A DNA stretch of 64,000 nucleotides from the NCBI GenBank assembly GCA_963850215.1, contig CAWKKI010000004.1, positions 72,682-136,681 of the forward strand, written 5' to 3'. A program made the position numbers and the translations under genes. Shown here in pieces: positions 6,357-50,694 of the stretch. The notes under the pieces are model-generated. The model worked only from the letters and a program-made list of their open reading frames with translations. It was not told where the DNA came from and did no database searches. How positions within the stretch are numbered: the first letter of the stretch is position 1; each line of letters begins with the position of its first letter. Source of the DNA: an uncultured Actinomycetota bacterium (lineage in GTDB: Bacteria; Actinomycetota; Actinomycetes; UBA12327).

Positions 6357-7802
6357 TCATTTCGAAGATTCCAGCTTCACGGGGAGGCGCCGCGCAGACC
6401 CTCGCCCGAGACGCCCCTCAGTGGTGCACTCTGTACAGGCCGGCGACGAACTCGGCACCTCTCTAATGAACTCATTGGTGCGCGGGTTGTGACGGATCCA
6501 GGTGAGTTCGCCCGGCTCCCGCAGCCCGGTCATGTCCATCAAGAACCCGTCCGTGGCGAGCGAGGCGGCAATCGCGTTCAAGGTGATGACGCTCGGCGCT
6601 GGCACGTCAGCGTCATCGACGTATCGCTGTCGTCGCACCTGATTTGGATCAGTGGCCTCCTCTTGAAGCTGGTCCGCGAGGATCAGACCGTTGCACCAAA
6701 GGCAACCTTGTCCGGGAAGCACTGGTCGAGTCACGGTGAAGACATCGAGAATGTCGCCGCTGTCTCTTTCGATCTGCACCTTGACACCCATCTGAACGCC
6801 CGGAATCAGGTATTGGTGCACGAGCGCGTTGAAGACCAGACGCGATTGCATGGAGTCCGCGGCGAGGAACAGGTAGTCGCAGTCACACAAGCTGCTGGCC
6901 ACTCCAGGGTCCACAACGTCGGCCCGAATCGGCACTACCTGGCCACGACCGCCCGTCTCATTTGCGTGGCGTGCTGCGATACGGACCTTTGATGTGCGCA
7001 GGCGTGGAAGCCAGTCCCCAACGAACATGAAGGCACTAAGCACCGGATGGACGTCTCGGCGGCGACTGCCCACCACGCGCGGCAGATTGGTCGGCTCGAT
7101 GGATTCCGGATCGATGACGACAACCTGGCCCACCCCCAGACGACTTAGCTGTTCGACGATCAATGACCCGGCGCCGCCAGCACCGATGACGCCCACCTTC
7201 AGTCCGGATAGGCGCGCTTGTCCTCGATCGCCAAATAGACGCGACTGACGGTCGAATCGGTCCGAGACGTGAGGTGGCGGTGCAGGCGGCGAGGACCGCA
7301 TCTCACGAATGGGCTGATTCGGCTCGACTAGAACCTGCAAGTCAGCCCGAGTCCCATCGGCGAACCAGATGTCCCCGGCGACGGCGTCGGCTGCAAACAC
7401 CAACGCCCCAACCGGTGGCCCATCGACGATGTCCAGCAGCGCCTGATATCCACGCTCGTGCGACTCCATGTCCGTGGCGGAGAAGCCGACTCGATCAGTG
7501 CCCCCGTGGCAATGAACTGCAAGGTAGGCCATCTGAAGATCGGCACATTCCAAGACGCAATCGAGCACAAAGTGGGCGGTAAGCATCCGGTAGCCATGTG
7601 TGCCCGGCAGATAGTCGATGCCATCGCGCGCAAGAAAGAGCCTGTGCACAAGCAAGCGCGTCCCGCGGGACGAGCGCAGAACGGACGCCGCCAGCACGGC
7701 GCCGTGCTCATCCCCATCGCCGGGAAAGAGGTGCTGACGCAACTGCCTCAGCAGTGTGGGCGGAAACCGCACGCTCACCGGCGTCACAGCGACTGCAGCC
7801 AT
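6357..7802 (-). CDS. JAB/JAMM metallopeptidase domain fused to an E1-like (ThiF/MoeB-family) adenylyltransferase domain
   Basis: ORF track 6357..7841, trimmed to ATG 7802. JAMM signature: GDEHGAVL (Glu) and AVHCHGGTDRVGFSATD (HxH-x8-S-x2-D). Rossmann motif: LKVGVIGAGGAGSLIVEQLSRLGVGQVVVIDPESIEPTNL. ThiF-type CxxC pairs: GCLWCNG and PACTECT. Confidence 0.85.
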   Translation of the reverse strand: MAAVAVTPVSVRFPPTLLRQLRQHLFPGDGDEHGAVLAASVLRSSRGTRLLVHRLFLARDGIDYLPGTHGYRMLTAHFVLDCVLECADLQMAYLAVHCHGGTDRVGFSATDMESHERGYQALLDIVDGPPVGALVFAADAVAGDIWFADGTRADLQVLVEPNQPIREMRSSPPAPPPHVSDRFDRQSRLFGDRGQARLSGLKVGVIGAGGAGSLIVEQLSRLGVGQVVVIDPESIEPTNLPRVVGSRRRDVHPVLSAFMFVGDWLPRLRTSKVRIAARHANETGGRGQVVPIRADVVDPGVASSLCDCDYLFLAADSMQSRLVFNALVHQYLIPGVQMGVKVQIERDSGDILDVFTVTRPVLPGQGCLWCNGLILADQLQEEATDPNQVRRQRYVDDADVPAPSVITLNAIAASLATDGFLMDMTGLREPGELTWIRHNPRTNEFIREVPSSSPACTECTTEGRLGRGSARRLPVKLESSK

Positions 7803-8197
7803 GCCAAGACCTTCTGCAGTTTGAGCGCGGCGGTGTCGCACGCTGGGTTCAACCCGTTGGAGCGCCGCGACAGTTGGATCGCGGGGAACGTCTGACCATC
7901 GATCTGATACGACCCGAGTGAACTGCCTTCGCCTAGCGGCAACCCGTTGGGCGAAGCGCCATCAGACCGTCGTACGTCAGGCCCGATGAAGTGTGGATAG
8001 ACATCCGACATTGGGTATTGAAAGGTGATGTGAAACCAAATCCACGTCGAGGCTGGCGAGTACTTGCTGCCCAAGTCGATCGGATCAACAGTCACGTAGG
8101 CGCCACCTTGGTTGTCGGCGACCGCGGTGACGGTCGCGTCCGGGAACGCCTCACGCAGCTCGGTCACCGCCATCTCGACTTCGGGGGTCAGCGTCAT
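7784..8197 (-). CDS. E2/UBC-like protein (prokaryotic E2 family)
   Basis: ORF track, 137 aa, located between the Ubl and E1 genes. It has an N-terminal helix, then WIWFHITFQYPMSDVYPHFIGP, which resembles the UBC ..F.i.FP..YP...P.v.F..HPN segment. The single Cys (C120, NPACD) lies outside the loop after YPHF, and that loop is Ser-rich (RRSDGAS, EGSS). The assignment rests on context plus pattern, not on a search. Confidence 0.6.
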   Translation of the reverse strand: MTLTPEVEMAVTELREAFPDATVTAVADNQGGAYVTVDPIDLGSKYSPASTWIWFHITFQYPMSDVYPHFIGPDVRRSDGASPNGLPLGEGSSLGSYQIDGQTFPAIQLSRRSNGLNPACDTAALKLQKVLAWLQSL

Positions 8198-8203
8198 GAC
8201 GTA

Positions 8204-8461
8204 CTACGAGTTGTCGTCGGGAGCGGTGGCGGCAAACCGGCTGCCGTCCTCAACGTGAACCACTTCGTCGTCGCCGATCAGCTTGCGCTTGTCCGGCTTG
8301 ATGAGGGCCAGTTGAAAGTTCAGTTGAATGGCAACACCGAAGGCAATGGCCGCCTCCTTGACCTCGAGCCCCGTCACATGGTGGCCGCTCACTCGAACGG
8401 CCTTCTTGTTGACCAGGATCTCGACCTCCGGCTTCGTTTTTCCTTCGTCGTCCATCGGCAT
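8204..8461 (-). CDS. small beta-grasp ubiquitin-like protein (multiubiquitin-family-like), 85 aa
   Basis: ORF track 8204..8518, trimmed to ATG 8461, which has AAGGAGG 6 nt upstream. KPEVEILVNKKAVRVSGHHVTGLEVKEAA..LIGDDEVVHVEDGSRFAATAPDDNS fits my recollection of the Pfam Multiubiquitin pattern (..I.VNg....e....tg.qi...a......L......i.dde.v.v.dG..F....d.ns). It is the first gene of the Ubl-E2-E1 array. Confidence 0.65.
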   Translation of the reverse strand: MPMDDEGKTKPEVEILVNKKAVRVSGHHVTGLEVKEAAIAFGVAIQLNFQLALIKPDKRKLIGDDEVVHVEDGSRFAATAPDDNS

Positions 8462-8559
8462 GGCGCCGCCTCCTTGATTGCAAATTAGGTAGTTGGTTGC
8501 TAATCTAGGATTCCACATTAGACGGAGAATTGCAACTTCGCAACCCAGGGGGCGCGGCG
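8462..8559. promoter_or_regulatory. 98-nt divergent intergenic region between the Ubl array and the HTH/ImmA pair
   Basis: Low-GC patch. It contains the self-complementary hexamer TTGCAA twice (gATTGCAAat near 8477 and aATTGCAAct near 8527). No promoter can be called with confidence. Confidence 0.3.
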
Positions 8560-36080: not shown

Positions 36081-36750
36081 AATCCTTCTCGACGTTGATG
36101 TCGTCATCAAGCTGACTGCCTATGACCTCTTGGACAAGATTGCACACCCCGGATGCGAGACACCATGCGAGCAAAGAGCCGGGGTTACAGCCGCTACCCG
36201 ATACGTTGCGACGAGTCAACTGAAGCGGCGGGCGGCCGACCCCAAGGTTGCCATTGCGCGTCTCGAAGGGTACTTGGACGTCGCGAGCATTCTCGAGCCG
36301 ACGCAGGAGGAAATTGAGTTCGCCGCCCGTCTCGAGAGTGCGGCCACCAGACAAGACCTCGAGCTTGGTACCGGGGAAAGCCAGATCTGCGCCATCGCCA
36401 TTTTCCGCGCTGTCCCGGCAATCCTGACGGGCGACAAGCGTGCAATTGCGACCGCGGAACTGCTCCTGCATTCAGTTCCCCAACTAAGTCAACTGGCAGC
36501 GCGCGTAGCGTGCCTGGAACAGGCTGTCCAACTCACTGTCGAACGCATCGGTGCGGCCACGGTCCGAAATCACGTCTTAGCCGAGCGGAACATGGACACC
36601 GCCCTTGGCGTCTGTTTTGAGGCCACGAGAGTGTCTGTGCCGGCGAACTTCGAGCCAGTTGGTTTGGCCAGTTACATAAGCAGCATGCGAGTGACGGCAC
36701 CGACTCTACTGATGTCGGGAGATTCGCTACATCTGCGGTCAGTTACGTAG
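36073..36750 (+). CDS. PIN-like domain protein candidate (225 aa)
   Basis: ORF track 35968..36750, trimmed to GTG 36073, which overlaps the ImmA stop by 8 nt. Acidic PIN-type positions: ILLDVDVVIKL (first Asp), GTGESQICAIA (Glu) and ILTGDKRAI (Asp). Assignment is by pattern only. Confidence 0.5.
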   Translation: MCEILLDVDVVIKLTAYDLLDKIAHPGCETPCEQRAGVTAATRYVATSQLKRRAADPKVAIARLEGYLDVASILEPTQEEIEFAARLESAATRQDLELGTGESQICAIAIFRAVPAILTGDKRAIATAELLLHSVPQLSQLAARVACLEQAVQLTVERIGAATVRNHVLAERNMDTALGVCFEATRVSVPANFEPVGLASYISSMRVTAPTLLMSGDSLHLRSVT

Positions 36751-37284
36751 GAAAGCCGCGTATGGCTCGATGACATTTGCGCGCAGTTCAATGTTGAGAA
36801 GTTTTGGATCACCCGCGGGTTCGTCGACAACATCGAGGCAGGCCTTGTCTACACGGCCCTGGATGTAGTCGGTCCCTACCTTGCCGCGACTGGGTCCGAT
36901 GGCCACGCGAGTCAATGAAAGGTCGACCTCGTCATCCACTTCTTCCAAGGAGTTGATCAACAGCGCAAATCGGGAGCCAACACAGTTGATTTCTGGGGGG
37001 ACAGGCATCCAATTAATCCCATCCGACGAATACTCTTCCGCACGCACCTGTTCCGCAAAGTGGTTCGAGACCATTGGGTGCATCGCCAAGACGATTGGGC
37101 CGGGCGCGGCGAGGGCGAAGGGCTGAACCATGCTTGTCGGGTTGCACGTGTTGCCCCCATAGCCCCAGAACGCGAAGCCGACGGCATCGATCTCCGCACG
37201 CTTGCGCACGATGATCTTCGACAAGTCCTCGTTCGCGTGGGTTCCGACCTTCATGAACAAGATGTGGTCACCGGCCTGGATCAC
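36739..37284 (-). CDS. unrecognised family, paralogue X2 (181 aa)
   Basis: ORF track. Its start overlaps the stop of 37281..38315 by 4 nt. It is homologous by eye to 34348..34992 (see that entry). Confidence 0.65.
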   Translation of the reverse strand: MIQAGDHILFMKVGTHANEDLSKIIVRKRAEIDAVGFAFWGYGGNTCNPTSMVQPFALAAPGPIVLAMHPMVSNHFAEQVRAEEYSSDGINWMPVPPEINCVGSRFALLINSLEEVDDEVDLSLTRVAIGPSRGKVGTDYIQGRVDKACLDVVDEPAGDPKLLNIELRANVIEPYAAFLRN

Positions 37285-38315
37285 GCCTCAGCCTCCACGT
37301 CCAGCAATGCAAACTCGTATTCCGAACTGTTGGCCTTGCCATAGTCGACACGCTTCTTCTCCAGGACATAGTGCACCTTCGGACTGGCAGACTCACCGTA
37401 GAAGTGCCGCAACTGAACTGGGTCAGTGATCCCGAGGCTCTGAGGCACATGACCCGCACCGGGGATGGAAGCGATCATGAGGTTGCAAGATTTCAGGTCG
37501 GGAGCATCGTCAAGGTGATAAGCGTGCAAGCGCGGCATCATTCGACTTATGTAGAAATGCTCGTTTAGCGCGAACTCCTGCACCCGATGGAGCACGGTTC
37601 TGGGCCAATCCAAATCGGGGTCGTCCGCGATCACCACCGCCCCTTCCCCCGAATAGTGAAGGGCCTCCATCCCGCGCCGCATGAAGACCTTGACGCTCTC
37701 CCCCTCGTTACTGGCTCCCCAGGGCGGATTCGTGTAGAAGCAGTCGAACGGCTCAGCCGCGGGGAACGCATCGAGACAGTTGTAGAGCACCGCATCCAAC
37801 GTTGAGAGGCCCTCGCGGTCAGCGAACCGCTTTACCGCCATCACAATCCGCTCATCGAAGTCGTAGACGGTGATCTGGGCCGGAGCGGTTCGAAGGATTC
37901 GTTTCGCAGACAAGTAGGCGGTGCAGACGCTGATTGCATCACCGTCTCCAATGAACGCAAGTCGCTTGCCGTCTGCCCACCGCGAGACGAACTCACTCTG
38001 CATCACCATGTCACCGGTCTTCATATAGATCTGGTCGAACTCGCGGAGCGGCCTCGGGCGGTTTTGCACCACGTCCGAGACCGCGTTGATCGCGGCCTTC
38101 AGATCAATCTCTTCTGGCATGACCTGCCTGCCTAACTGGAGAATTGGCATACGATGGATGCTGTCCTGAAGATCCTGACTTGCACACGTCGTCCACCAGC
38201 GGTCAACGCGATTCGGCACGTGCGAAAGTAGTGGATCCTTGCGCGCAAGGTGGGCGATCTTCGCGTGACTGCCCAGATACAACGCCGAACCGCGTGTAAT
38301 GCGCGGGTCAACCAC
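37281..38315 (-). CDS. DUF43/BpsA-like class I SAM-dependent transferase with an NPPW motif
   Basis: ORF track, 344 aa (internal alternative start at 38120). Motif I-like KRLAFIGDGDAISV, acidic beta-2 end ITVYDFDERIV, and motif IV FDCFYTNPPWG. The upstream REFDQIYMKTGDMVMQSEFV resembles the DQ..T.eT segment of DUF43 proteins as I recall them. Confidence 0.65.
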   Translation of the reverse strand: MVDPRITRGSALYLGSHAKIAHLARKDPLLSHVPNRVDRWWTTCASQDLQDSIHRMPILQLGRQVMPEEIDLKAAINAVSDVVQNRPRPLREFDQIYMKTGDMVMQSEFVSRWADGKRLAFIGDGDAISVCTAYLSAKRILRTAPAQITVYDFDERIVMAVKRFADREGLSTLDAVLYNCLDAFPAAEPFDCFYTNPPWGASNEGESVKVFMRRGMEALHYSGEGAVVIADDPDLDWPRTVLHRVQEFALNEHFYISRMMPRLHAYHLDDAPDLKSCNLMIASIPGAGHVPQSLGITDPVQLRHFYGESASPKVHYVLEKKRVDYGKANSSEYEFALLDVEAEA

Positions 38316-38624: not shown

Positions 38625-38828
38625 TTACTGCCTCGACGAAAGCTGCCCCAAAACTGCGATTAGCTGGTTCGCCGTGGCGTCGCCCTTGGCATGCGCGTAA
38701 AGAAGCAACCACGTGATCCCGGGGTGACCAGGCAATAGTGCGGCAACCAGGATGCCCCAAGCAATCCACCGCAAGAGCCAAGGCGGTGCAAAGCCCACCG
38801 CGACGTCAACGTCGCTAGTCCAATTCAC
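38625..38828 (-). CDS. small hydrophobic ORF (67 aa), doubtful
   Basis: ORF track. It lies 54 nt downstream of the DUF6527-like gene and has two hydrophobic stretches (PPWLLRWIAWGILVAALL, ITWLLLYA). There is no other support. Confidence 0.25.
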   Translation of the reverse strand: MNWTSDVDVAVGFAPPWLLRWIAWGILVAALLPGHPGITWLLLYAHAKGDATANQLIAVLGQLSSRQ

Positions 38829-38882
38829 GTCGACTTCCTCCAGTCGTTAGGAGTGAGGCGGTCATGGCAGGCTCTGAATGCA

Positions 38883-39272
38883 CTACCTGCCGATGAAACG
38901 CAGGAGGCGAGAGGACCAACTGGCCCCATCGGAATCTTGTTGCTGTCGAAGAGCGTTCCGGTCGATTGCATACCCGCGCGCCACTTGTCGGCGGTCTAGC
39001 GGTCGACGCCAGTCGACTCGACCCCGGCTGATGAAGTAGTGCGAATTGCAGCGAAGTCCGCTTGCCGCGACGCTCGGTGACAGCGAGACCTCCCCATCGA
39101 AGGAAACCGTGTACCGCGCCGGTGAAAGTTTGGTGACGACGACGCCCGCGCAACCGCACGGACACAGGTGTCCAGCAGTCGAGTACTTCAGGGAGACGTA
39201 GAGAGTTCCGGAGTCGAGCGGAGATGGGAACGACTCGACCACCTGAATGTCGTATCGATCGATGCGACTCAC
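38883..39272 (-). CDS. DUF6527-like Cys/His zinc-ribbon protein
   Basis: ORF track 38883..39368, trimmed to GTG 39272, which overlaps (GTGA) the stop of the restored E1-like reading frame. LYVSLKYSTAGHLCPCGCAGVVVTKLSP..SLSPSVAASGLRCNSHYFISRGRVDW matches my recollection of DUF6527 (CxCGC ... PS.......C.SHY.I..G.V.W). Confidence 0.6.
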   Translation of the reverse strand: MSRIDRYDIQVVESFPSPLDSGTLYVSLKYSTAGHLCPCGCAGVVVTKLSPARYTVSFDGEVSLSPSVAASGLRCNSHYFISRGRVDWRRPLDRRQVARGYAIDRNALRQQQDSDGASWSSRLLRFIGR

Positions 39273-39845
39273 TTGACGTCCCCATTGCGCATCTCGTTGA
39301 GATAGAGCTTGTACACCGTCTCGCTCAGTTCTTCGTGGGACGCGTAGAGCTCGACGTACTTCTTCCACCGAATGACCGCGAGGAGTGCGTTCAAGGCATT
39401 GGGGTCTGCGATCTGGATGTTGCTGCCGTAGTCATCCTTCCCGAGTGGAATAGCCCGGCCCGGTGGGCATCGCGATGTCGAATTCGGGGAAGTAGCAGGT
39501 GACCTTTACGAGGCCCGTGAGGGCTCCTTCAGCCTCGCTGATTCCCATCCCGACGTCGATGAAGGGCACGTCCCGGGCTCGCAGCCATTCCATGATTGCC
39601 GGTCGCTCGACCGCTTCGGCCGCCGCGAGGAAGACAAACGTGGCGCTCTCGATCACATGCAGGTTGCTGACCGTGAGATGTTCGGGGTGAGCGGTGATCT
39701 GAGTGTGCATCCGCGAGTATTCGGTAGCGAAATGCTCCGCCTTGTTCGGCCGAGCCTGCAGAACCAGCACGGACGCGGCGCCGTCGTAGCCGTCACCGAG
39801 AAGCCGAGCGACCGGGTCGCTAGGAGCGGATGGCAGGTTCAACAT
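39269..39845 (-). pseudogene. ThiF/E1-like protein, N-terminally short and frameshifted near 39440
   Basis: Frame 1 (39845..39432): MLNLPSAPSDPVARLLGDGYDGAASVLVLQARPNKAEHFATEYSRMH..ATFVFLAAAEAVERPAIMEWLRARDVPFIDVGMGI..LTGLVKVT. It continues in the +1 frame as KDDYGSNIQIADPNALNALLAVIRWKKYVELY..NEMRNGDVK* and ends at 39269. It retains GDGYDG (GxGxxG) but lacks the helix and second strand with the acidic residue of a normal Rossmann ATP site. Confidence 0.55.
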
Positions 39846-40080
39846 CGAAGACCATGCCGTCCTTGACCTTGACGCTCTCGCCTGGGCGCATTGACTTGTC
39901 TGCGCCGTGGCCGCGGCTGTACTCCACGGTCGTGCCAGCTGGGTCGTAGGGCTGTCCTGGCGAAGCCAACTCGACCACTTGCTCGAACGTGATGGCCTTC
40001 TCATTCCACTGGTGCGAAATGGTGTTGACGATGATGGTTGCGGTAGTGACCCGCGCATCGATCGCTTCAAGGTCGGTCAT
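39820..40080 (-). CDS. small beta-grasp ubiquitin-like protein, copy B (86 aa)
   Basis: This is the C-terminal part of ORF 39820..40584, from ATG 40080, which has GGAGAG 7 nt upstream. TTATIIVNTISHQWNEKAITFEQVVELA..MRPGESVKVKDGMVFDVEPAIRS has the same pattern as 8204..8461. Confidence 0.6.
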   Translation of the reverse strand: MTDLEAIDARVTTATIIVNTISHQWNEKAITFEQVVELASPGQPYDPAGTTVEYSRGHGADKSMRPGESVKVKDGMVFDVEPAIRS

Positions 40081-40225
40081 GAGGTTCTCTCCATCTCTGG
40101 GGCTCGAGGGATCGTGCATGTCGCTTTCGACCCGCTGACTCAAGTTTAGAACACTTGTGCGTCGAGTTTCAACCAATGCACCGAAAGTGCGACACTGGAG
40201 TGAGTCGATGCTCTTGGGGGGGCCC

Positions 40226-40603
40226 ATGACCAAGACGAAGATCGATGTGGAAGGTCTGTACGCAGCACTCGACGCCCAACGGGATGCCCAGGGCTTGTCC
40301 TGGCGCCAACTCGCGCGCGAGGTCGGAGTCAGCCCGTCGCTGTTGTCGCGTTTGGGTAACCAGTTACGCCCGGACGCCGACGGGTTCGCCACCTTGGTCC
40401 GCTGGCTGAACATGCCTGCTGAAAAGTTCATGGTCGATAGCGCTGGGGCGTCACGAGCCCGGCCCGAACCTGATCTAGTAACCCAACTCGCACCGCTGCT
40501 GAGGGCGCGCCGGGATCTGGACAAGGGCGACGTCGCGTACCTGGAGGAAGTGATCCGTGCCACCGTCCGACATGCGAAGCACACACGTGAGGAACCCGAG
40601 TGA
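40226..40603 (+). CDS. XRE-type HTH regulator (CapH-like), copy B
   Basis: ORF track 40157..40603, trimmed to ATG 40226. The HTH is SWRQLAREVGVSPSLLSRLGNQLRPDADGF. It is a paralogue of 8560..8913 and is divergent from Ubl copy B across 145 nt. Confidence 0.75.
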   Translation: MTKTKIDVEGLYAALDAQRDAQGLSWRQLAREVGVSPSLLSRLGNQLRPDADGFATLVRWLNMPAEKFMVDSAGASRARPEPDLVTQLAPLLRARRDLDKGDVAYLEEVIRATVRHAKHTREEPE

Positions 40604-40679
40604 GCCGTGCGGGCAACTTCAACAAGTCAGCCTGTCGGCGAGTTGCCGTTGAATTGCGCGAGAAATTGGTCTGCAGGCT

Positions 40680-41531
40680 ATGGATGCCTTCGACCCATGG
40701 GGTCTGGCTGCGCTATATGGGATCGACGTCGTCTCGCTGAGCGAACTACCGATCGACGACGAAGTAGTCAGCTACTTCACGATTGATCGCCCTGAGGTGT
40801 TTTCCGGTGCATTGATCCCCATCGGCCACGGCGCGGTCATCGTAGAGAACGACTCCCATCCGCTAGTACGCCGTCGCTCCACGATGGGTCACGAACTCGC
40901 CCACGTGGTTGCTGAGCATCAATTCGATGCACGGCTGACGAACGACCGAGGGTGTCGCCTCGCGAACCAAACACAGGAGGACGAGGCGGCTGAGATTGCG
41001 GGTGAACTCCTCGTCCCGTTCGACGCTGCCCGAAGCCTCGCTCGGAGCAAGGCCACGAACGAGGAGGTCGCGCTCCAGTTCGGCGTCAGCGTCGGGCTAG
41101 CCCGCTGGAGGATGGAGGCCACTGGGGCTCGCATCATCGCTCGACGCGAAGGCGCCGCCCACCAGCGGGCAATTCGCTCGTGGGCCGTTCGTTGGAGCCA
41201 CCCCTGCAGTCAGCGCAGTGCGCGATCTACGCAAGGCCCCTCGCGAGCGCGCTGCGGTGCCGGGATTTGCGTGCGCGCTCACCGGAAGTTGCACGTTCCC
41301 AGGGCGGGTGTCGTGACGCGGCAATCGAAACTGACGCGCGCAGTGACTGGCTGGGCGGAGCCGCATTCGTGTGGCTATTGTCGGCGAACTCATCACCCAA
41401 GCAAGGCCTCAACTTGGCTGTCGAATTGCGGAGGTACACGTGCGCTTGCTCATCAGTCGAACTCAGCAGGATGTGAAGGGGATGCTAGGAGGTCACAAGG
41501 GCGTGCAGTTCACGTTGTCGCATCGACTTGA
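40680..41531 (+). CDS. ImmA/IrrE-family metallopeptidase (CapP-like), copy B, with a suspect C-terminal tail
   Basis: ORF track, 283 aa. HExxH in STMGHELAHVVAEH, and EDEAAEIAGELLVP. Homology to copy A ends near aa 160 (~41160). The remaining Arg/Ala-rich tail looks like read-through or out-of-frame sequence. Confidence 0.65.
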   Translation: MDAFDPWGLAALYGIDVVSLSELPIDDEVVSYFTIDRPEVFSGALIPIGHGAVIVENDSHPLVRRRSTMGHELAHVVAEHQFDARLTNDRGCRLANQTQEDEAAEIAGELLVPFDAARSLARSKATNEEVALQFGVSVGLARWRMEATGARIIARREGAAHQRAIRSWAVRWSHPCSQRSARSTQGPSRARCGAGICVRAHRKLHVPRAGVVTRQSKLTRAVTGWAEPHSCGYCRRTHHPSKASTWLSNCGGTRALAHQSNSAGCEGDARRSQGRAVHVVAST

Positions 41532-41796
41532 ACTGACGGCCGACGAAATAGAGTTGGTGCAGCGCTACAAGCTTGGCGACTACGCCTTGACCTGGTCGAC
41601 CGTTCAGGGCACTCAGATCCCGAATGACACCATCGCGAACACGGCAGCTGGTCGAAGTCAGACAGTTACCGATGTGACGACCCTCCCGAGCAACGAGGAG
41701 ATTGTTAAGAAGGCGTGCGACGAACTTCCCGTTCTGTTCGAGGTGTGCCAATCGTTTGGCGGGACCGAAGTGATCGACTATCCACGCGCGTCGTAA
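41482..41796 (+). CDS. hypothetical protein (104 aa)
   Basis: ORF track 41371..41796, trimmed to ATG 41482, which has GAAGGGG upstream. MLGGHKGVQFTLSHRLELTADEIELVQRYKLGDYAL.. has balanced composition. I recognise no family. Confidence 0.35.
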   Translation: MLGGHKGVQFTLSHRLELTADEIELVQRYKLGDYALTWSTVQGTQIPNDTIANTAAGRSQTVTDVTTLPSNEEIVKKACDELPVLFEVCQSFGGTEVIDYPRAS

Positions 41797-41851: not shown

Positions 41852-43114
41852 TTATCGGGTCGTCTCACTGGGCTCGGCGAGTGATGCGAGTTGCACGGCG
41901 ACCTGGTGCCGTCGATGCGGGCCGAGCGGCCACATCCCGGTTTGCAGGCTTCGCCTAAATTGCTCTGCCGCCAGCAGGTTCTGGCGATCCTCTTTGAGAC
42001 ATAGACCGCGCCAATAGTGCAGCCAAGAGGACTGGGGTATGCCCCGCTCGGCCTTTTCGAACTCGCGCAGTGCGGTGTCGATGTGTCCCGTCATGCCGAG
42101 GGTGTAAGCGCGGGCCGAGCAGGCGATCGCTTTTGAGTGGGCGGACCGCGGAATGCGTAGGGCCTCGTCTAGGTCAACGAGCGCGTCCTCGTGACGTCCC
42201 CACTCAGCGAGTACCTGCCCGCGAACATGCAGCACGCGCGACATGTCGTAGCCACTATGGAGTGCTTGGTTGATCGCCGCGTATGCGGTCGGGAAGTCCC
42301 CGGCGTACCAAGCAATGACGGCGTAACGGCGCCAGAGCCATCGACCTTCAATGAACACGGCAAGTGCGCGGCTGGTGATGGCTCGTGCCCGTTCGTGGTG
42401 TTCCAGCTCGGTGAGCCGTTTGGCGTAGCGATCGATCGCCATCGCCAACTTCTCGCCAGCGCCCACGGGCTCACTGAGAGCGAGCGCAGTTTCGAACGCA
42501 GCGTCCGCGGCGTCGAAGTCGTTTGCTGCAGCATGCAGGTTGCCAAGCTCTCGCCAGGCATCGATGGCGACTGGCTCATCAGCGTGCGTCTCGGTAGCTT
42601 GTCGCAGTGTGCTGATGGCCGGCGCGGTCTGGTGCTGACTGACGTAGCGCGCTGCGAGTTGCAAGAAGTCTGCTGGTGGGTTGGGCCGGTGGCTGACCGA
42701 CTTGCCCCCGGCCAGACGCCATGCAAGTTCGGGAATGAGGGTGGCCCGGTAGTAGCCGGTTGCTGATTCGGGGTCCAGGTAGTGCGGGCTGCGCTCACCG
42801 ATGTCGTTGATGAGTACTTCGGTGATGCGTCCTTCGAAGGACTTGATGGGCAAGCCGTCCAAGTTGAGCCCGGCACGCAGGAGCCGCCGGTCACGCAGGT
42901 TGGCAAACGAGTTGACCTGCCTCTTGATGGCGTCTTCGACCGCTCTGGCGTCCTCAGCATCACTTGTCTTTGTACCGCCGCCCCGCGCGAGTTGCAGCAG
43001 CTCGGGGTTAAGCGCTATCGCAGTGCGTGACATGCCTTCGCGGCGCGAAAGGGCCATGAGCGCATTCGCGATAGCTGCGATGTTGGCGGGCAGGTTTGTG
43101 TTAGCGCGAGCCAT
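41852..43114 (-). CDS. TPR-repeat protein (420 aa)
   Basis: ORF track 41852..43141, trimmed to ATG 43114. The C-terminal two thirds carry repeated A..A...Y..AL helical-pair motifs (AWRELGNLHAAANDFDAADAAFETAL, WYAGDFPTAYAAINQAL, GRHEDALVDLDEAL, GHIDTALREFEKA). Confidence 0.7.
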   Translation of the reverse strand: MARANTNLPANIAAIANALMALSRREGMSRTAIALNPELLQLARGGGTKTSDAEDARAVEDAIKRQVNSFANLRDRRLLRAGLNLDGLPIKSFEGRITEVLINDIGERSPHYLDPESATGYYRATLIPELAWRLAGGKSVSHRPNPPADFLQLAARYVSQHQTAPAISTLRQATETHADEPVAIDAWRELGNLHAAANDFDAADAAFETALALSEPVGAGEKLAMAIDRYAKRLTELEHHERARAITSRALAVFIEGRWLWRRYAVIAWYAGDFPTAYAAINQALHSGYDMSRVLHVRGQVLAEWGRHEDALVDLDEALRIPRSAHSKAIACSARAYTLGMTGHIDTALREFEKAERGIPQSSWLHYWRGLCLKEDRQNLLAAEQFRRSLQTGMWPLGPHRRHQVAVQLASLAEPSETTR

Positions 43115-43153
43115 GGCTGATCTTTGCAGGCCGCCACACATGTAGGGGGTCGT

Positions 43154-48885: not shown

Positions 48886-50694
48886 ATGAACTCGACGACA
48901 AGCACCCCACCAACACCGGGCGGGCAGGCATCGAAGACTGCCGTGTCCTACCTGCGCGTCAGCACCGCCGATCAAGCCACCCGGGGTGGGCGGGAAGAGG
49001 GTTTCTCGATTCCCGCGCAACGTGAAGCGAACCTGCGCAAAGCGGCTGGCCTCGACGCCACCGTCATCGCCGAGTTCGTAGATGCTGGCGAATCGGGAAC
49101 CTCCGCCAGCAAGCGGCCCGAACTGCAGAAGATGCTGACGTATGTTCGTGAACACCACGTCGACTACTGCATCGTGCACAAGCTTGATCGGCTCGCGCGC
49201 TCACGCGCCGACGACGTCGCGATCCACTTCGCGCTCACACAAGCCGGAGTAACGCTGGTATCCACCAGCGAGAACATCGACGAGACGCCGTCCGGGATGC
49301 TCATGCACGGCATCATGAGCAGCATCGCCGAGTTCTACTCCCGCAACCTCGCCAACGAAGTCACCAAAGGGCTGGTCCAAAAAGCCAGCCTCGGTGGCAC
49401 CGTCACCCGAGCACCCGTCGGCTACCGCAACATTCACGTCACCGACGAACTCGGCCGCGTCAACCGCACCATCGAACTAGATACCGACCGCGCTGACCTC
49501 GTCGCATTCGCGTTCTACCGCTACGCCGACGGCGACATGACCCTGTCCCTGCTGCTGGAGGAACTCACCGATCGTGGACTGACCAGCCGGCCCACCCCGA
49601 AATGGCCAAGCAAACCGCTGTCGACAACAAGCCTGCACAAGCTGCTGCGCAACCCCTACTACAAAGGTGAAGTCCACTACCGAGGCGTGCAATACAACGG
49701 AACACACACCGCCCTAGTCGACCCCGTCACCTGGCAGAAAGTGCAAGACCTGCTGGCAGCAAACCGGATCGGCGGCACCCACCAACGCACCAACCAGCAC
49801 TACCTGCGGGGCAGCGTCTTCTGCGGCGAATGCGGCTCACGTCTCATGCTCACCACCGCACGCAACCGATGGGGCACCAACTATCCCTACTTCATCTGCT
49901 CAGGGCGCGCCCGCCGCACGACAACGTGCGAACGCCAAGCCATGCCAGTCGATCTGGTCGAGGAACTCATCGAGGACGAATACGCCACCATCGCGCTGTC
50001 CCCCGAACTGCGCGACCAGACAGAAGCCCTGATCCTCGACGACTTCGACAAACTCCACGCCGACTCCAGCAAGGACCGGCGCACCGCCGAACGCAGACAA
50101 TCCAAACTGCTCGCCGAACGCGACAAACTCCTGCAAGCCCACTACGCAGGCGCGGTGCCCCTCGACCTTCTCAAGACAGAACAAGACCGCATCGCAGGCC
50201 AACTCGCGGCCGTCCAGCAGTCACTGAATACCGCGCAAGCCAACTACGACCACATGCGCACAACCCTGGCCGACTGCCTCGACCTCACCCGCGACTGCCA
50301 CGCCGCCTACCTACAAGCCGACGACAACACCAGACGCACCTTCAACCAAGCGTTCTTCTCAAAGATCTACATCGATGAAGACGACACAAGCCGCCAACGC
50401 TCAATTCACGTCGACTACAACGAGCCGTTCAACCAACTCCTCAACCGGCTCGTCCCCGCCCACGAGCACCGCACGATGCAAGAAAAACAACGGGCGATGG
50501 CGAAAACACAACATGCACAAACGGCGAACCACGCGTCAAGCGGCGCCACGACCCCTGGCGGAAACTCCCGCGTCGCGGAGGTCCAGGGTTCTCATACTGA
50601 CACTTTGGTGGAGCTGAGGGGATTTGAACCCCTGACCCCCTCGATGCGAACGAGGTGCGCTACCGGACTGCGCTACAGCCCCCGGAGGCAGTGA
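48886..50694 (+). CDS. large serine recombinase (integrase)
   Basis: ORF track, 602 aa. Resolvase catalytic domain: AVSYLRVSTADQ..GFSIPAQRE..VDAGESGTS..CIVHKLDRLARS. Recombinase domain and zinc ribbon: CGECGSRLM..YFICSGR. A coiled-coil tail follows. The last ~30 codons read through the antisense of the tRNA gene. Confidence 0.9.
   Translation: MNSTTSTPPTPGGQASKTAVSYLRVSTADQATRGGREEGFSIPAQREANLRKAAGLDATVIAEFVDAGESGTSASKRPELQKMLTYVREHHVDYCIVHKLDRLARSRADDVAIHFALTQAGVTLVSTSENIDETPSGMLMHGIMSSIAEFYSRNLANEVTKGLVQKASLGGTVTRAPVGYRNIHVTDELGRVNRTIELDTDRADLVAFAFYRYADGDMTLSLLLEELTDRGLTSRPTPKWPSKPLSTTSLHKLLRNPYYKGEVHYRGVQYNGTHTALVDPVTWQKVQDLLAANRIGGTHQRTNQHYLRGSVFCGECGSRLMLTTARNRWGTNYPYFICSGRARRTTTCERQAMPVDLVEELIEDEYATIALSPELRDQTEALILDDFDKLHADSSKDRRTAERRQSKLLAERDKLLQAHYAGAVPLDLLKTEQDRIAGQLAAVQQSLNTAQANYDHMRTTLADCLDLTRDCHAAYLQADDNTRRTFNQAFFSKIYIDEDDTSRQRSIHVDYNEPFNQLLNRLVPAHEHRTMQEKQRAMAKTQHAQTANHASSGATTPGGNSRVAEVQGSHTDTLVELRGFEPLTPSMRTRCATGLRYSPRRQ
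50606..50682 (-). tRNA. tRNA-Ala (anticodon CGC), 77 nt with encoded CCA
   Basis: The reverse complement is GGGGCTGTAGCGCAGTCCGGTAGCGCACCTCGTTCGCATCGAGGGGGTCAGGGGTTCAAATCCCCTCAGCTCCACCA. It has a 7-bp acceptor stem with a G3:U70 pair (the Ala identity element), an anticodon stem CCTCG/CGAGG with loop TTCGCAT, and a T-arm AGGGG-TTCAAAT-CCCCT. Confidence 0.9.

What the first reader, a model, noticed from the sequence alone, without database searches (positions are those of the whole stretch)
38625..41160. Second Ubl locus (Ubl, short frameshifted E1-like, DUF6527-like zinc protein) with its own divergent HTH + ImmA pair
**Seen in the sequence**
- About 31 kb from the first locus the same layout recurs.
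- On the minus strand: Ubl (40080-39820), an E1-like gene overlapping its end (39845-39269), and a CxCGC...C.SH protein whose GTG overlaps the restored E1 stop (GTGA).
- On the plus strand, across 145 nt: paralogues of the HTH and ImmA genes of locus A.

**Differences from locus A**
- There is no E2-like gene and no JAMM domain.
- The E1-like protein keeps GDGYDG but lacks the rest of the ATP-binding beta-alpha-beta unit.
- It needs a +1 shift near 39440 to reach its conserved C-terminus (NIQIADPNALNALLAVIRWKKY).
- The ImmA copy has an aberrant tail.

**Inference**
- This is either a decaying relative of locus A or a distinct Ubl + E1 + zinc-ribbon architecture in which the DUF6527 protein substitutes for E2/E3.
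- The duplicated regulator-plus-Ubl arrangement argues that the HTH/ImmA pair is a functional part of these systems rather than a chance neighbour.
Basis: partly seen in the sequence, partly recalled or inferred. Interest (0 to 1): 0.6.

Follow-up and report, generated by a model that had tools for sequence, protein, structure and literature searches.

The report
Damaged Type II Bub ubiquitin-like operon
This is an ordinary copy of an already described bacterial ubiquitin-like conjugation operon (Type II "Bub") with its usual CapH/CapP regulator pair, but its central E2-E1 enzyme gene has lost about half its length, so it probably no longer works.

Summary
Locus B is not a new architecture. 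It is a Type II Bub operon (formerly "6E.2/DUF6527"; Ye, Gong, Chambers and Corbett, bioRxiv 10.1101/2024.11.21.623953).

- **Layout:** bubA (Multi_ubiq), bubBD (E2-E1 fusion) and bubE (DUF6527, a Ser-His protease with a C4 zinc site), plus a divergent CapH/CapP pair. That paper reports such a pair at 31% of Bub operons.
- **Intact relatives:** Nocardioides, Mycolicibacterium, Salinibacterium and about 22 Bacteroidota and other loci all carry a BubBD of about 390 aa (DUF6791 + ThiF).
- **The lesion:** the window's bubBD lacks 197 codons in frame. These cover the E2 Ser/Lys/His residues, the GxGGTG ATP loop and the Arg finger.
- **"GDGYDG":** this is the N-terminus of the E2 domain, not a relic of the nucleotide loop.
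- **Intact genes:** BubA, BubE and CapH keep all their family-invariant residues.
- **1-nt shifts:** there is one in bubBD and one in capP. They cannot be trusted, because this assembly shows 13 such shifts in 100 kb of core-gene alignment, including an S4-like ribosomal gene.
- **Large deletions:** none was seen in 108 core orthologues, so the 591-nt deletion is probably real.

Low interest.

The parts
38883..39272 (-). bubE: DUF6527/BubE protein, 129 aa, apparently intact. It keeps the C4 zinc site (C37, C39, C41, C75) and the proposed Ser-His dyad (S67, H78).
   Evidence: PF20137 E=7.9e-18. It is 57-74% identical to more than 100 homologues of about 130 aa, many of the named ones actinobacterial. 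Family-invariant residues are present. The AF2 model has pLDDT 82, with 8 strands and a C-terminal helix.
39269..39845 (-). bubBD remnant: an E2-E1 fusion gene reduced from about 1167 nt to 577 nt. Codons 1-21 match the N-terminus of the E2 domain. The rest matches homologue residues about 219-388 (the second half of the ThiF adenylation domain, the crossover-loop Tyr and the C-terminal region).
   Evidence: tblastn with three intact BubBD proteins. Alignment A1. Library search: the match always begins at query residue 21-22, and full-length relatives are about 390-400 aa.
39774..39791 (-). Deletion junction (GGC TAC GAC | GGC GCC GCG). 197 codons are missing in frame between 39783 and 39782. 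The loss takes out most of DUF6791 (E2 Ser-x-Lys and His), the GxGGTG loop, the DGD motif and the HNAxR Arg finger.
   Evidence: None of 108 core orthologues shows a comparable internal deletion.
39453..39464 (-). Frame change by one extra base in ACCGGGCCGGGC. Frame 1 stops at 39432, and the conserved C-terminus continues in the +1 frame.
   Evidence: It cannot be told apart from the assembly's background of 1-nt indels.
39820..40080 (-). bubA: a ubiquitin-like protein with one beta-grasp domain, 86 aa, intact. It ends in the family-invariant C-terminal Ser.
   Evidence: PF14452 E=1.6e-15. It is 65-80% identical to the BubA of L004-L006. Alignment A3.
40081..40225 (.). Divergent promoter region. 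On the minus strand there is a promoter-like site, TTGAAA-18-TAAACT (40172-40143). Just upstream of it lies a conserved imperfect inverted repeat (CAGTG-N14-CA(C/T)TG), which is a candidate CapH operator.
   Evidence: Promoter scan. DNA alignment with L005 and L006 shows both blocks conserved. The operator assignment is inference; the repeat finder reported nothing.
40226..40603 (+). capH: an XRE-type HTH repressor, 125 aa, intact.
   Evidence: HTH_3 and HTH_31. It is 71% identical over 123 aa to the HTH gene beside the Nocardioides and Mycolicibacterium Bub operons.
40600..41531 (+). capP: an ImmA/IrrE-type (M78) metallopeptidase. The GTG start at 40600 overlaps the capH stop. One base is missing at about 40666-40671. 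The open frame from ATG 40680 keeps HELAH and the conserved RGCR Cys. Homology ends at about 41180, and a 116-aa tail without relatives follows, because the usual stop is absent.
   Evidence: Peptidase_M78 E=4e-14. PADLOC capP E=2.9e-12. Frames. tblastn.

Best explanation
[quoted passage not shown] It is carried as cargo on an integrated mobile element.

How an intact system works (from the literature, not tested here):
- CapH represses the divergent promoter.
- Single-stranded DNA produced by DNA damage or phage infection activates the CapP peptidase. CapP cleaves CapH, and bubA-bubBD-bubE are then expressed.
- BubBD adenylates the C-terminus of BubA.
- BubA passes through oxyester intermediates, first on a crossover-loop Tyr and then on the Ser of the fused E2 domain, onto target lysines.
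- BubE, a Zn-stabilised Ser-His peptidase, removes the conjugates.

In this window, bubBD has lost 197 codons in frame. The loss covers the whole E2 active site and the ATP-binding half of the adenylation domain. The locus therefore cannot adenylate or conjugate BubA (inferred from the sequence). BubA, BubE and CapH look intact.

The two 1-nt frame changes (bubBD near 39460, capP near 40670) are as likely to be consensus errors of this assembly as real mutations.
For: - **Family assignments:** PF14452, PF20137 and Peptidase_M78/capP.
- **Orthologous operons:** the same gene order and overlaps, with a 388-aa DUF6791+ThiF protein, in Salinibacterium, Nocardioides and Mycolicibacterium.
- **Wider survey:** about 22 of 28 loci from Bacteroidota, Burkholderiaceae, Balneolales and others have a 387-394-aa ORF ending at the bubE start. 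tblastn with the window's BubA found a bubA in 19 of the 28. The five loci scanned in Pfam gave DUF6791+ThiF in four and Multi_ubiq in three of four small ORFs.
- **The lesion:** the window remnant aligns to residues 1-21 and about 219-388 only.
- **Lost residues:** the near-invariant E2 Ser/Lys/His, GxGGTG and HNAxR. These match the residues shown to be essential in E. coli BubBD (S106, R219).
- **BubE:** invariant residues are intact, and the fold is 8 strands plus a terminal helix, as published.
- **Published description:** the operon type and its CapH/CapP association.
- **Mobile context:** a large serine recombinase next to tRNA-Ala, a coupling-protein-like gene, a deaminase, and patchy distribution of BubE (2 of 60 relatives).
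Against: - The deletion rests on a single MAG consensus.
- That consensus is demonstrably error-prone for 1-nt indels: 13 shifts in 100.5 kb of core-gene alignment.
- No anti-phage phenotype has yet been shown for any Bub operon, so the 'defence' role is inferred from context.
- The deletion is in frame. It preserves the overlaps with bubA and bubE, so a 190-aa product could still be made.
Confidence: 0.85

Rival explanations
1. The locus is an intact Type II Bub operon in the real organism. On this view the 591-nt deletion and both frame changes are artefacts of assembly or of strain mixing in the metagenome bin.
For: - The assembly carries about 0.13 frame shifts per kb in core genes, including a doubly shifted S4-like ribosomal gene and a pstB copy.
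- Completeness is estimated at only 76% despite 18 long contigs. That fits broken marker genes.
- Two shifts in 2.2 kb is only mildly above background (Poisson P about 0.03).
Against: - None of 108 orthologous core genes shows a large internal deletion.
- The junction is clean and in frame, with no repeat that could collapse an assembly.
- Indel noise of the kind seen here is single-base.
Confidence: 0.1
2. This is the reader's alternative: a distinct, functional Ubl + short E1 + DUF6527 architecture in which the zinc protein replaces E2/E3.
For: - The deletion is in frame.
- bubA, bubE and the gene overlaps are preserved.
Against: - The remnant lacks the Gly-rich loop, the DGD motif and the Arg finger, which every adenylating E1 needs.
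- No other protein in a library of 1.84 billion representatives shares the junction. The short hits are fragments that still keep DGDxFxNHNAFRAPG.
- BubE is experimentally a peptidase, not a ligase.
- The BubE model has no RING or treble-clef match.
Confidence: 0.03
3. Division of labour between the two loci. On this view locus B survives because its BubE (the only DUF6527 gene in the genome), and perhaps its BubA, serve the BubE-less locus A module 31 kb away on the same element.
For: - The genome has one DUF6527 gene and two Multi_ubiq genes.
- Both Ubls end in Ser.
Against: - The two Ubls show no significant similarity.
- BubE is predicted to recognise its cognate BubA.
I did not check this.
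- There is no direct evidence for the idea.
Confidence: 0.04

Closest known systems
Type II Bub operon (BubA / BubBD / BubE; formerly 6E.2 or 'DUF6527' operons), Ye, Gong, Chambers & Corbett, bioRxiv 10.1101/2024.11.21.623953
   Same: - The gene order is bubA-bubBD-bubE, and there is no JAB peptidase.
- BubA is a Multi_ubiq beta-grasp protein.
- BubE is DUF6527 with the C4 site and the Ser/His dyad.
- The remnant of the middle gene is orthologous to BubBD (57-62% identity to actinobacterial BubBD).
- A CapH/CapP pair lies next to the operon.
- The operon sits in a mobile element.
   Different: - bubBD lacks 197 codons (the E2 active site and the ATP-binding half) and shows one frame change.
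- BubA here has a single beta-grasp domain. The characterised E. coli ZDHYS365 BubA has three.
CapH + CapP regulator pair (described for CBASS and other defence operons; Calloji, Chambers & Corbett, bioRxiv 10.64898/2026.05.16.725639; the Bub paper cites earlier work on the pair)
   Same: - A small XRE-type HTH protein is followed by an M78 (ImmA/IrrE) metallopeptidase with HExxH and a conserved Cys.
- The two genes overlap by 4 nt and are divergent from the operon they control.
- PADLOC capP model, E=2.9e-12.
   Different: - capP shows a 1-nt frame change after codon 23 and has no stop at the usual position (a 116-aa tail).
- Neither cleavage of CapH nor activation by ssDNA was tested here.
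Type I Bub operon (BubAB, BubCD, BubE), with locus A of this window as its BubE-less relative
   Same: Both are Ubl/E2/E1 conjugation modules with Multi_ubiq Ubls and ThiF-type E1 proteins. Both are often paired with CapH/CapP.
   Different: - Type I fuses a JAB peptidase to the E1 and the Ubl to the E2. Locus B has neither fusion.
- Locus A and locus B proteins are not detectably similar (Ubl, E1) or only 34-35% identical (regulators).
Bil (bacterial ISG15-like) and Type II CBASS Cap2/Cap3 systems
   Same: Both are bacterial E1/E2-based conjugation pathways with a deconjugating peptidase. Cap2 is also an E2-E1 fusion.
   Different: - Those systems use Cys thioesters and JAB peptidases.
- Bub uses Tyr/Ser oxyesters and the DUF6527 protease.
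- PADLOC E1-E2 models match the homologue's ThiF part only weakly.

Membership tests
Type II Bub operon | BubA: a ubiquitin-like beta-grasp (Multi_ubiq) protein encoded first | tested here: met
   PF14452 E=1.6e-15. It is 65-80% identical to the BubA of intact operons, and the invariant residues, including the C-terminal Ser, are present.
Type II Bub operon | BubBD: an E2-E1 fusion of about 390 aa (DUF6791 E2 domain with catalytic Ser, ThiF adenylation domain with Gly-rich loop and Arg, crossover-loop Tyr) | tested here: not met
   Only a remnant is present. It is orthologous over residues 1-21 and about 219-388, and the Tyr is retained. The E2 Ser/Lys/His, GxGGTG and HNAxR are deleted. The read-through gives no Pfam hit. 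The gene belongs to the family by descent but not as a working enzyme.
Type II Bub operon | BubE: a DUF6527 protein with four zinc-binding Cys and a Ser-His dyad | tested here: met
   PF20137 E=7.9e-18. C37, C39, C41, C75, S67 and H78 align with invariant or near-invariant columns. The model is a beta-rich fold with no PDB neighbour, as published.
Type II Bub operon | No JAB/JAMM peptidase, and gene order bubA-bubBD-bubE with overlapping genes | tested here: met
   The ORF map and Pfam scans show no JAB in 38.6-41.5 kb. The 26-nt and 4-nt overlaps are identical to L004-L006.
Type II Bub operon | ATP-dependent conjugation of BubA through oxyester intermediates | not testable with these tools
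   This is a biochemical property. The sequence predicts it is lost here.
CapH/CapP regulator pair | An XRE-type HTH repressor directly followed by an M78 metallopeptidase with HExxH, divergent from the regulated operon | tested here: met
   HTH_3/HTH_31 and Peptidase_M78. PADLOC capP. HELAH and RGCR are present. The pair is 65-72% identical to the pairs beside orthologous Bub operons.
CapH/CapP regulator pair | An uninterrupted capP reading frame | tested here: inconclusive
   There is a 1-nt frame change at about 40666-40671 and no stop at the usual place. The assembly's indel background makes the shift unreliable.
CapH/CapP regulator pair | ssDNA-stimulated cleavage of CapH by CapP and de-repression of the operon | not testable with these tools
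   Known from experiments on other members.
   Foldseek of a pLDDT-82 model against the PDB gave a best E-value of 1.8 and no RING or treble-clef entry. The fold is an 8-strand beta domain.

The most novel reading that the evidence does not exclude
The in-frame mini-BubBD allele is not simple decay. On this reading the element has switched off conjugation at locus B but keeps BubA and the genome's only BubE. That would make a two-locus, mixed-subtype Bub system.
Probability: 0.04. Interest if true: 0.5.

Novelty: already known. Interest (0 to 1): 0.15.

Why it matters
For biology, little. The operon type, the role of DUF6527 and the CapH/CapP association were all published in 2024, and Pfam now names PF20137 'BubE'.

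There are two practical points:
- The locus is a natural loss-of-function allele of bubBD, with its partners preserved. It sits in a mobile defence island that also carries a second, BubE-less Ubl module.
- The reference-based check shows that this assembly has about one 1-nt frame error per 8 kb, even in essential genes. Every 'frameshifted gene' reported from this genome should therefore be treated as unproven until reads are seen.

Tried and rejected
- **BLASTP of locus A against locus B:** the E1 and Ubl proteins show no significant similarity, so recent duplication is rejected.
- **Pfam on the remnant and on its read-through:** no hit, because the retained part lacks the diagnostic N-terminal ThiF motifs.
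- **Near relatives to reconstruct the ancestral junction:** BubE is absent from all 7 same-family genomes and present in only 2 of 53 same-class genomes, at 35-49% identity or less. Microhomology at the breakpoints could not be assessed.
- **Genome-contig scan with exact peptide patterns:** it returned distant, mostly Bacteroidota loci, not close actinobacterial ones. These were still useful as a broad survey.
- **First assembly check, dropped:** I listed intact long core genes (rpoB, rpoC, dnaE and others). I dropped it as biased, because it only sees survivors. The orthologue-by-orthologue tblastn survey replaced it.
- **Neighbouring ORFs:** the small ORF 38625-38828, the capP tail, ORF 41371-41796 and the TPR gene 41852-43141 have no counterparts next to other Bub operons. 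They are not parts of the system.
- **Inverted-repeat finder on the intergenic region:** it reported nothing. The candidate operator rests only on the DNA alignment.
Full report
**What is in the sequence**

The minus strand of 38883-40080 carries three overlapping reading frames.
- An 86-aa Multi_ubiq protein at 40080-39820 (PF14452, E=1.6e-15).
- A frame that starts at ATG 39845, 26 nt inside the first gene, and ends at 39269.
- A 129-aa DUF6527 protein at 39272-38883 (PF20137, E=7.9e-18). Its GTG start overlaps the preceding stop as GTGA.

Across a 145-nt gap, the plus strand carries two more genes.
- A 125-aa XRE-type HTH protein at 40226-40603.
- A Peptidase_M78 (ImmA/IrrE) gene.

**What the locus is**

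I looked up three of the many DUF6527 homologues that are about 60% identical. In Salinibacterium soli, a Nocardioides MAG and Mycolicibacterium novocastrense they sit in the same operon.
- Multi_ubiq (81-86 aa).
- A 388-aa protein with DUF6791 and ThiF domains, starting 26 nt inside the first gene.
- DUF6527, overlapping the middle gene by 4 nt in Nocardioides and Mycolicibacterium.

In Nocardioides and Mycolicibacterium (three of the four loci fetched) there is also a divergent HTH + Peptidase_M78 pair. The precomputed Pfam label for PF20137 is now 'BubE'.

The literature search led to Ye, Gong, Chambers and Corbett (bioRxiv 10.1101/2024.11.21.623953). That paper describes these operons as Type II Bub, formerly 6E.2/DUF6527.
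- BubA is the Ubl.
- BubBD is an E2-E1 fusion. It works through a crossover-loop Tyr and an E2 Ser, using oxyester intermediates.
- BubE is a new Ser-His peptidase with a C4 zinc site. It removes BubA conjugates.
- 168 of 544 Bub operons (31%) are flanked by CapH+CapP.

PADLOC's capP model matches the window's ImmA gene (E=2.9e-12).

**Survey of other genomes**

A genome-contig scan with the window's BubE returned 28 loci, mostly Bacteroidota, with some Burkholderiaceae, Balneolales, Chloroflexota and Gammaproteobacteria.
- In about 22 of them a 387-394-aa ORF ends at the bubE start.
- tblastn with the window's BubA found a bubA upstream of it in 19 of the 28.
- I scanned five of these loci in Pfam. 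The long ORF gave DUF6791 + ThiF in four, and ThiF only in the Chloroflexota locus. Three of the four small upstream ORFs scanned gave Multi_ubiq.
- tblastn with the window's CapH and CapP found the divergent pair in 5 of the 28.

**The E1-like gene**

tblastn with three intact BubBD proteins shows three aligned pieces in the window's gene.
- Residues 1-21.
- Residues about 219-325, at 54-62% identity.
- Residues about 315-388 in the +1 frame, at 57-58% identity.

The multiple alignment places the break between D21 and G22 (39783|39782). 197 codons (591 nt) are missing, in frame. The missing block contains:
- most of DUF6791, with its near-invariant His, Ser-x-Lys (the E2 active site);
- the GxGGTG loop;
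- the DGD motif;
- the HNAxR arginine.

These correspond to the residues whose mutation abolishes activity in E. coli BubBD (S106, R219). What remains is IDVGMG, the crossover-loop Tyr, NIQ and the C-terminal helices.

It is not a relic of the nucleotide-binding loop.

A full HMMER search of 1.84 billion representatives gave 407 relatives.
- Full-length relatives are 390-400 aa.
- The match always starts at query residue 21-22.
- The short hits are fragments that still carry DGDxFxNHNAFRAPG.

The window's short form is unique. That speaks against a distinct functional architecture.

**The other genes**

- **BubA:** it keeps every invariant column, including a C-terminal Ser that is invariant in all ten Type II BubA proteins aligned.
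- **BubE:** it keeps C37, C39, C41, C75, the near-invariant P66-S67 and H78. These match the published C4 site and Ser-His dyad.
- **BubE model:** an AlphaFold2 model built from 47 sequences (pLDDT 82) has eight strands and a long C-terminal helix. Foldseek against the PDB found nothing better than E=1.8, and no RING or treble-clef entry. This agrees with the paper's statement that the fold has no close structural neighbour.
- **CapH:** it is full length and 71% identical to the Nocardioides orthologue.
- **CapP:** it begins at GTG 40600, overlapping the capH stop. It then changes frame because one base is missing at TTGG|TC (40666-40671). It continues from 40672, with ATG 40680 as the first available start, and keeps HELAH and the RGCR cysteine. 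It has no stop at the usual position, which gives a 116-aa tail with no relatives.

**Can the frame changes be trusted?**

I took 200 kb from a same-family genome. I extracted 161 long ORFs from it and compared them with the whole assembly by tblastn.
- 108 ORFs have an orthologue-like hit, covering 100.5 kb of alignment.
- 11 of those genes show 13 collinear changes of frame, or 0.13 per kb.
- One is a doubly shifted S4-like ribosomal protein gene on C10.
- A pstB copy on C11 is also shifted.

Essential genes cannot be broken at that rate, so these are consensus errors.

Two shifts in the 2.2 kb of locus B are only mildly above this background (Poisson P about 0.03). They lie in the same kind of short G/C runs. 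I therefore do not count the bubBD and capP frame changes as evidence of decay.

None of the 108 orthologues shows a large internal deletion. The 591-nt deletion is therefore probably real, in at least the dominant strain.

**Relation to locus A, and the wider context**

- The Ubl and E1 of locus A (8204-8518 and 6357-7841) show no significant similarity to those of locus B.
- The two HTH/ImmA pairs are 34-35% identical to each other. Locus B's pair is 65-72% identical to the pairs beside orthologous operons in other genera.
- Each regulator pair therefore travels with its own operon. There was no duplication within this genome.
- The genome has only one DUF6527 gene.
- BubE is absent from all seven same-family genomes searched, and present in 2 of 53 same-class genomes.
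- The locus lies in a stretch of lower G+C. The same stretch holds a large serine recombinase abutting tRNA-Ala, a coupling-protein-like gene and a deaminase.
- This fits the published observation that Bub operons sit in mobile elements and defence islands.

**Mechanism, and what is shown versus inferred**

- **Shown here:** family membership of four genes; orthology of the remnant; the extent of the deletion; preservation of the catalytic and zinc residues in BubE; a promoter-like site (TTGAAA-18-TAAACT, 40172-40143) and an adjacent imperfect inverted repeat, both conserved with L005 and L006.
- **Taken from published experiments on other members:** de-repression by CapP cleavage of CapH on ssDNA; BubBD chemistry; BubE peptidase activity.
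- **Inferred:** this allele cannot adenylate or conjugate BubA; the inverted repeat is the CapH operator.

**Verdict**

This is a known system in a damaged copy.

Noticed in passing
whole genome (G000), e.g. C10:62898-63521, C10:57206-57710, C1:389402-390127, C11:240057-240815: The assembly carries about 0.13 single-base frame changes per kb in conserved core genes: 13 in 100.5 kb, affecting 11 of 108 orthologues. They include a doubly shifted S4-like ribosomal protein gene and a pstB copy. These are almost certainly consensus errors. They undermine every 'frameshifted gene' call in this genome, and may explain the 76% completeness estimate for an 18-contig bin.
   Followed up: yes
window 8195-8206 (locus A): The Ubl gene (8204-8518, minus strand) and the E2-like gene (7784-8197) are in the same frame, separated only by a stop codon and two codons. 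This resembles a Type I BubAB fusion interrupted by a stop. Locus A has no DUF6527 gene anywhere nearby. Its Ubl also ends in Ser.
   Followed up: partly
window 39820-39822; L004-L027 bubA ends: All ten Type II BubA proteins aligned end in an invariant Ser (...RS or ...GQS). The Type I BubA that has been characterised ends in Gly. In many loci from both Actinobacteria and Bacteroidota, bubBD starts exactly 26 nt inside bubA.
   Followed up: partly
L025:3807-4981 and L035:1658-2821: Two other loci (Cytophaga sp. FL35 and a Bacteroidetes MAG) have the BubBD position split into two or three ORFs (172+198 aa; 204+111+119 aa). Disruption of the enzyme gene, or sequencing error, may therefore not be rare in this operon family.
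   Followed up: no
window 40081-40225; L005:4449-4602; L006:4452-4602: The intergenic region between bubA and capH is conserved at the DNA level across three genera. It has a CAGTG-N14-CACTG element just upstream of the -35 box. In the two homologues a second CAGTGTT copy lies downstream of the -10 box, and this copy is degenerate in the window.
   Followed up: partly
window 41181-41796: The capP frame runs 116 aa past its homologous end and overlaps a 141-aa ORF (41371-41796) in another frame. Neither has relatives beside other Bub operons or any Pfam hit, so what is encoded between capP and the TPR gene (41852-43141) is unclear.
   Followed up: partly
window 36739-38315: Directly downstream of bubE lies a BpsA_C-like transferase (37281-38315, PF01861 E=2e-19), coupled to a 181-aa protein with no family match.
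   Followed up: no
window 48886-50694 and 50606-50682: A large serine recombinase (Resolvase + Recombinase + Zn_ribbon_recom) has a 3' end that runs across the antisense tRNA-Ala(CGC) gene. G+C content rises from about 0.60 to about 0.66 just upstream of this region, at about 45 kb. This probably marks the end of the mobile element that carries both Ubl loci.
   Followed up: partly
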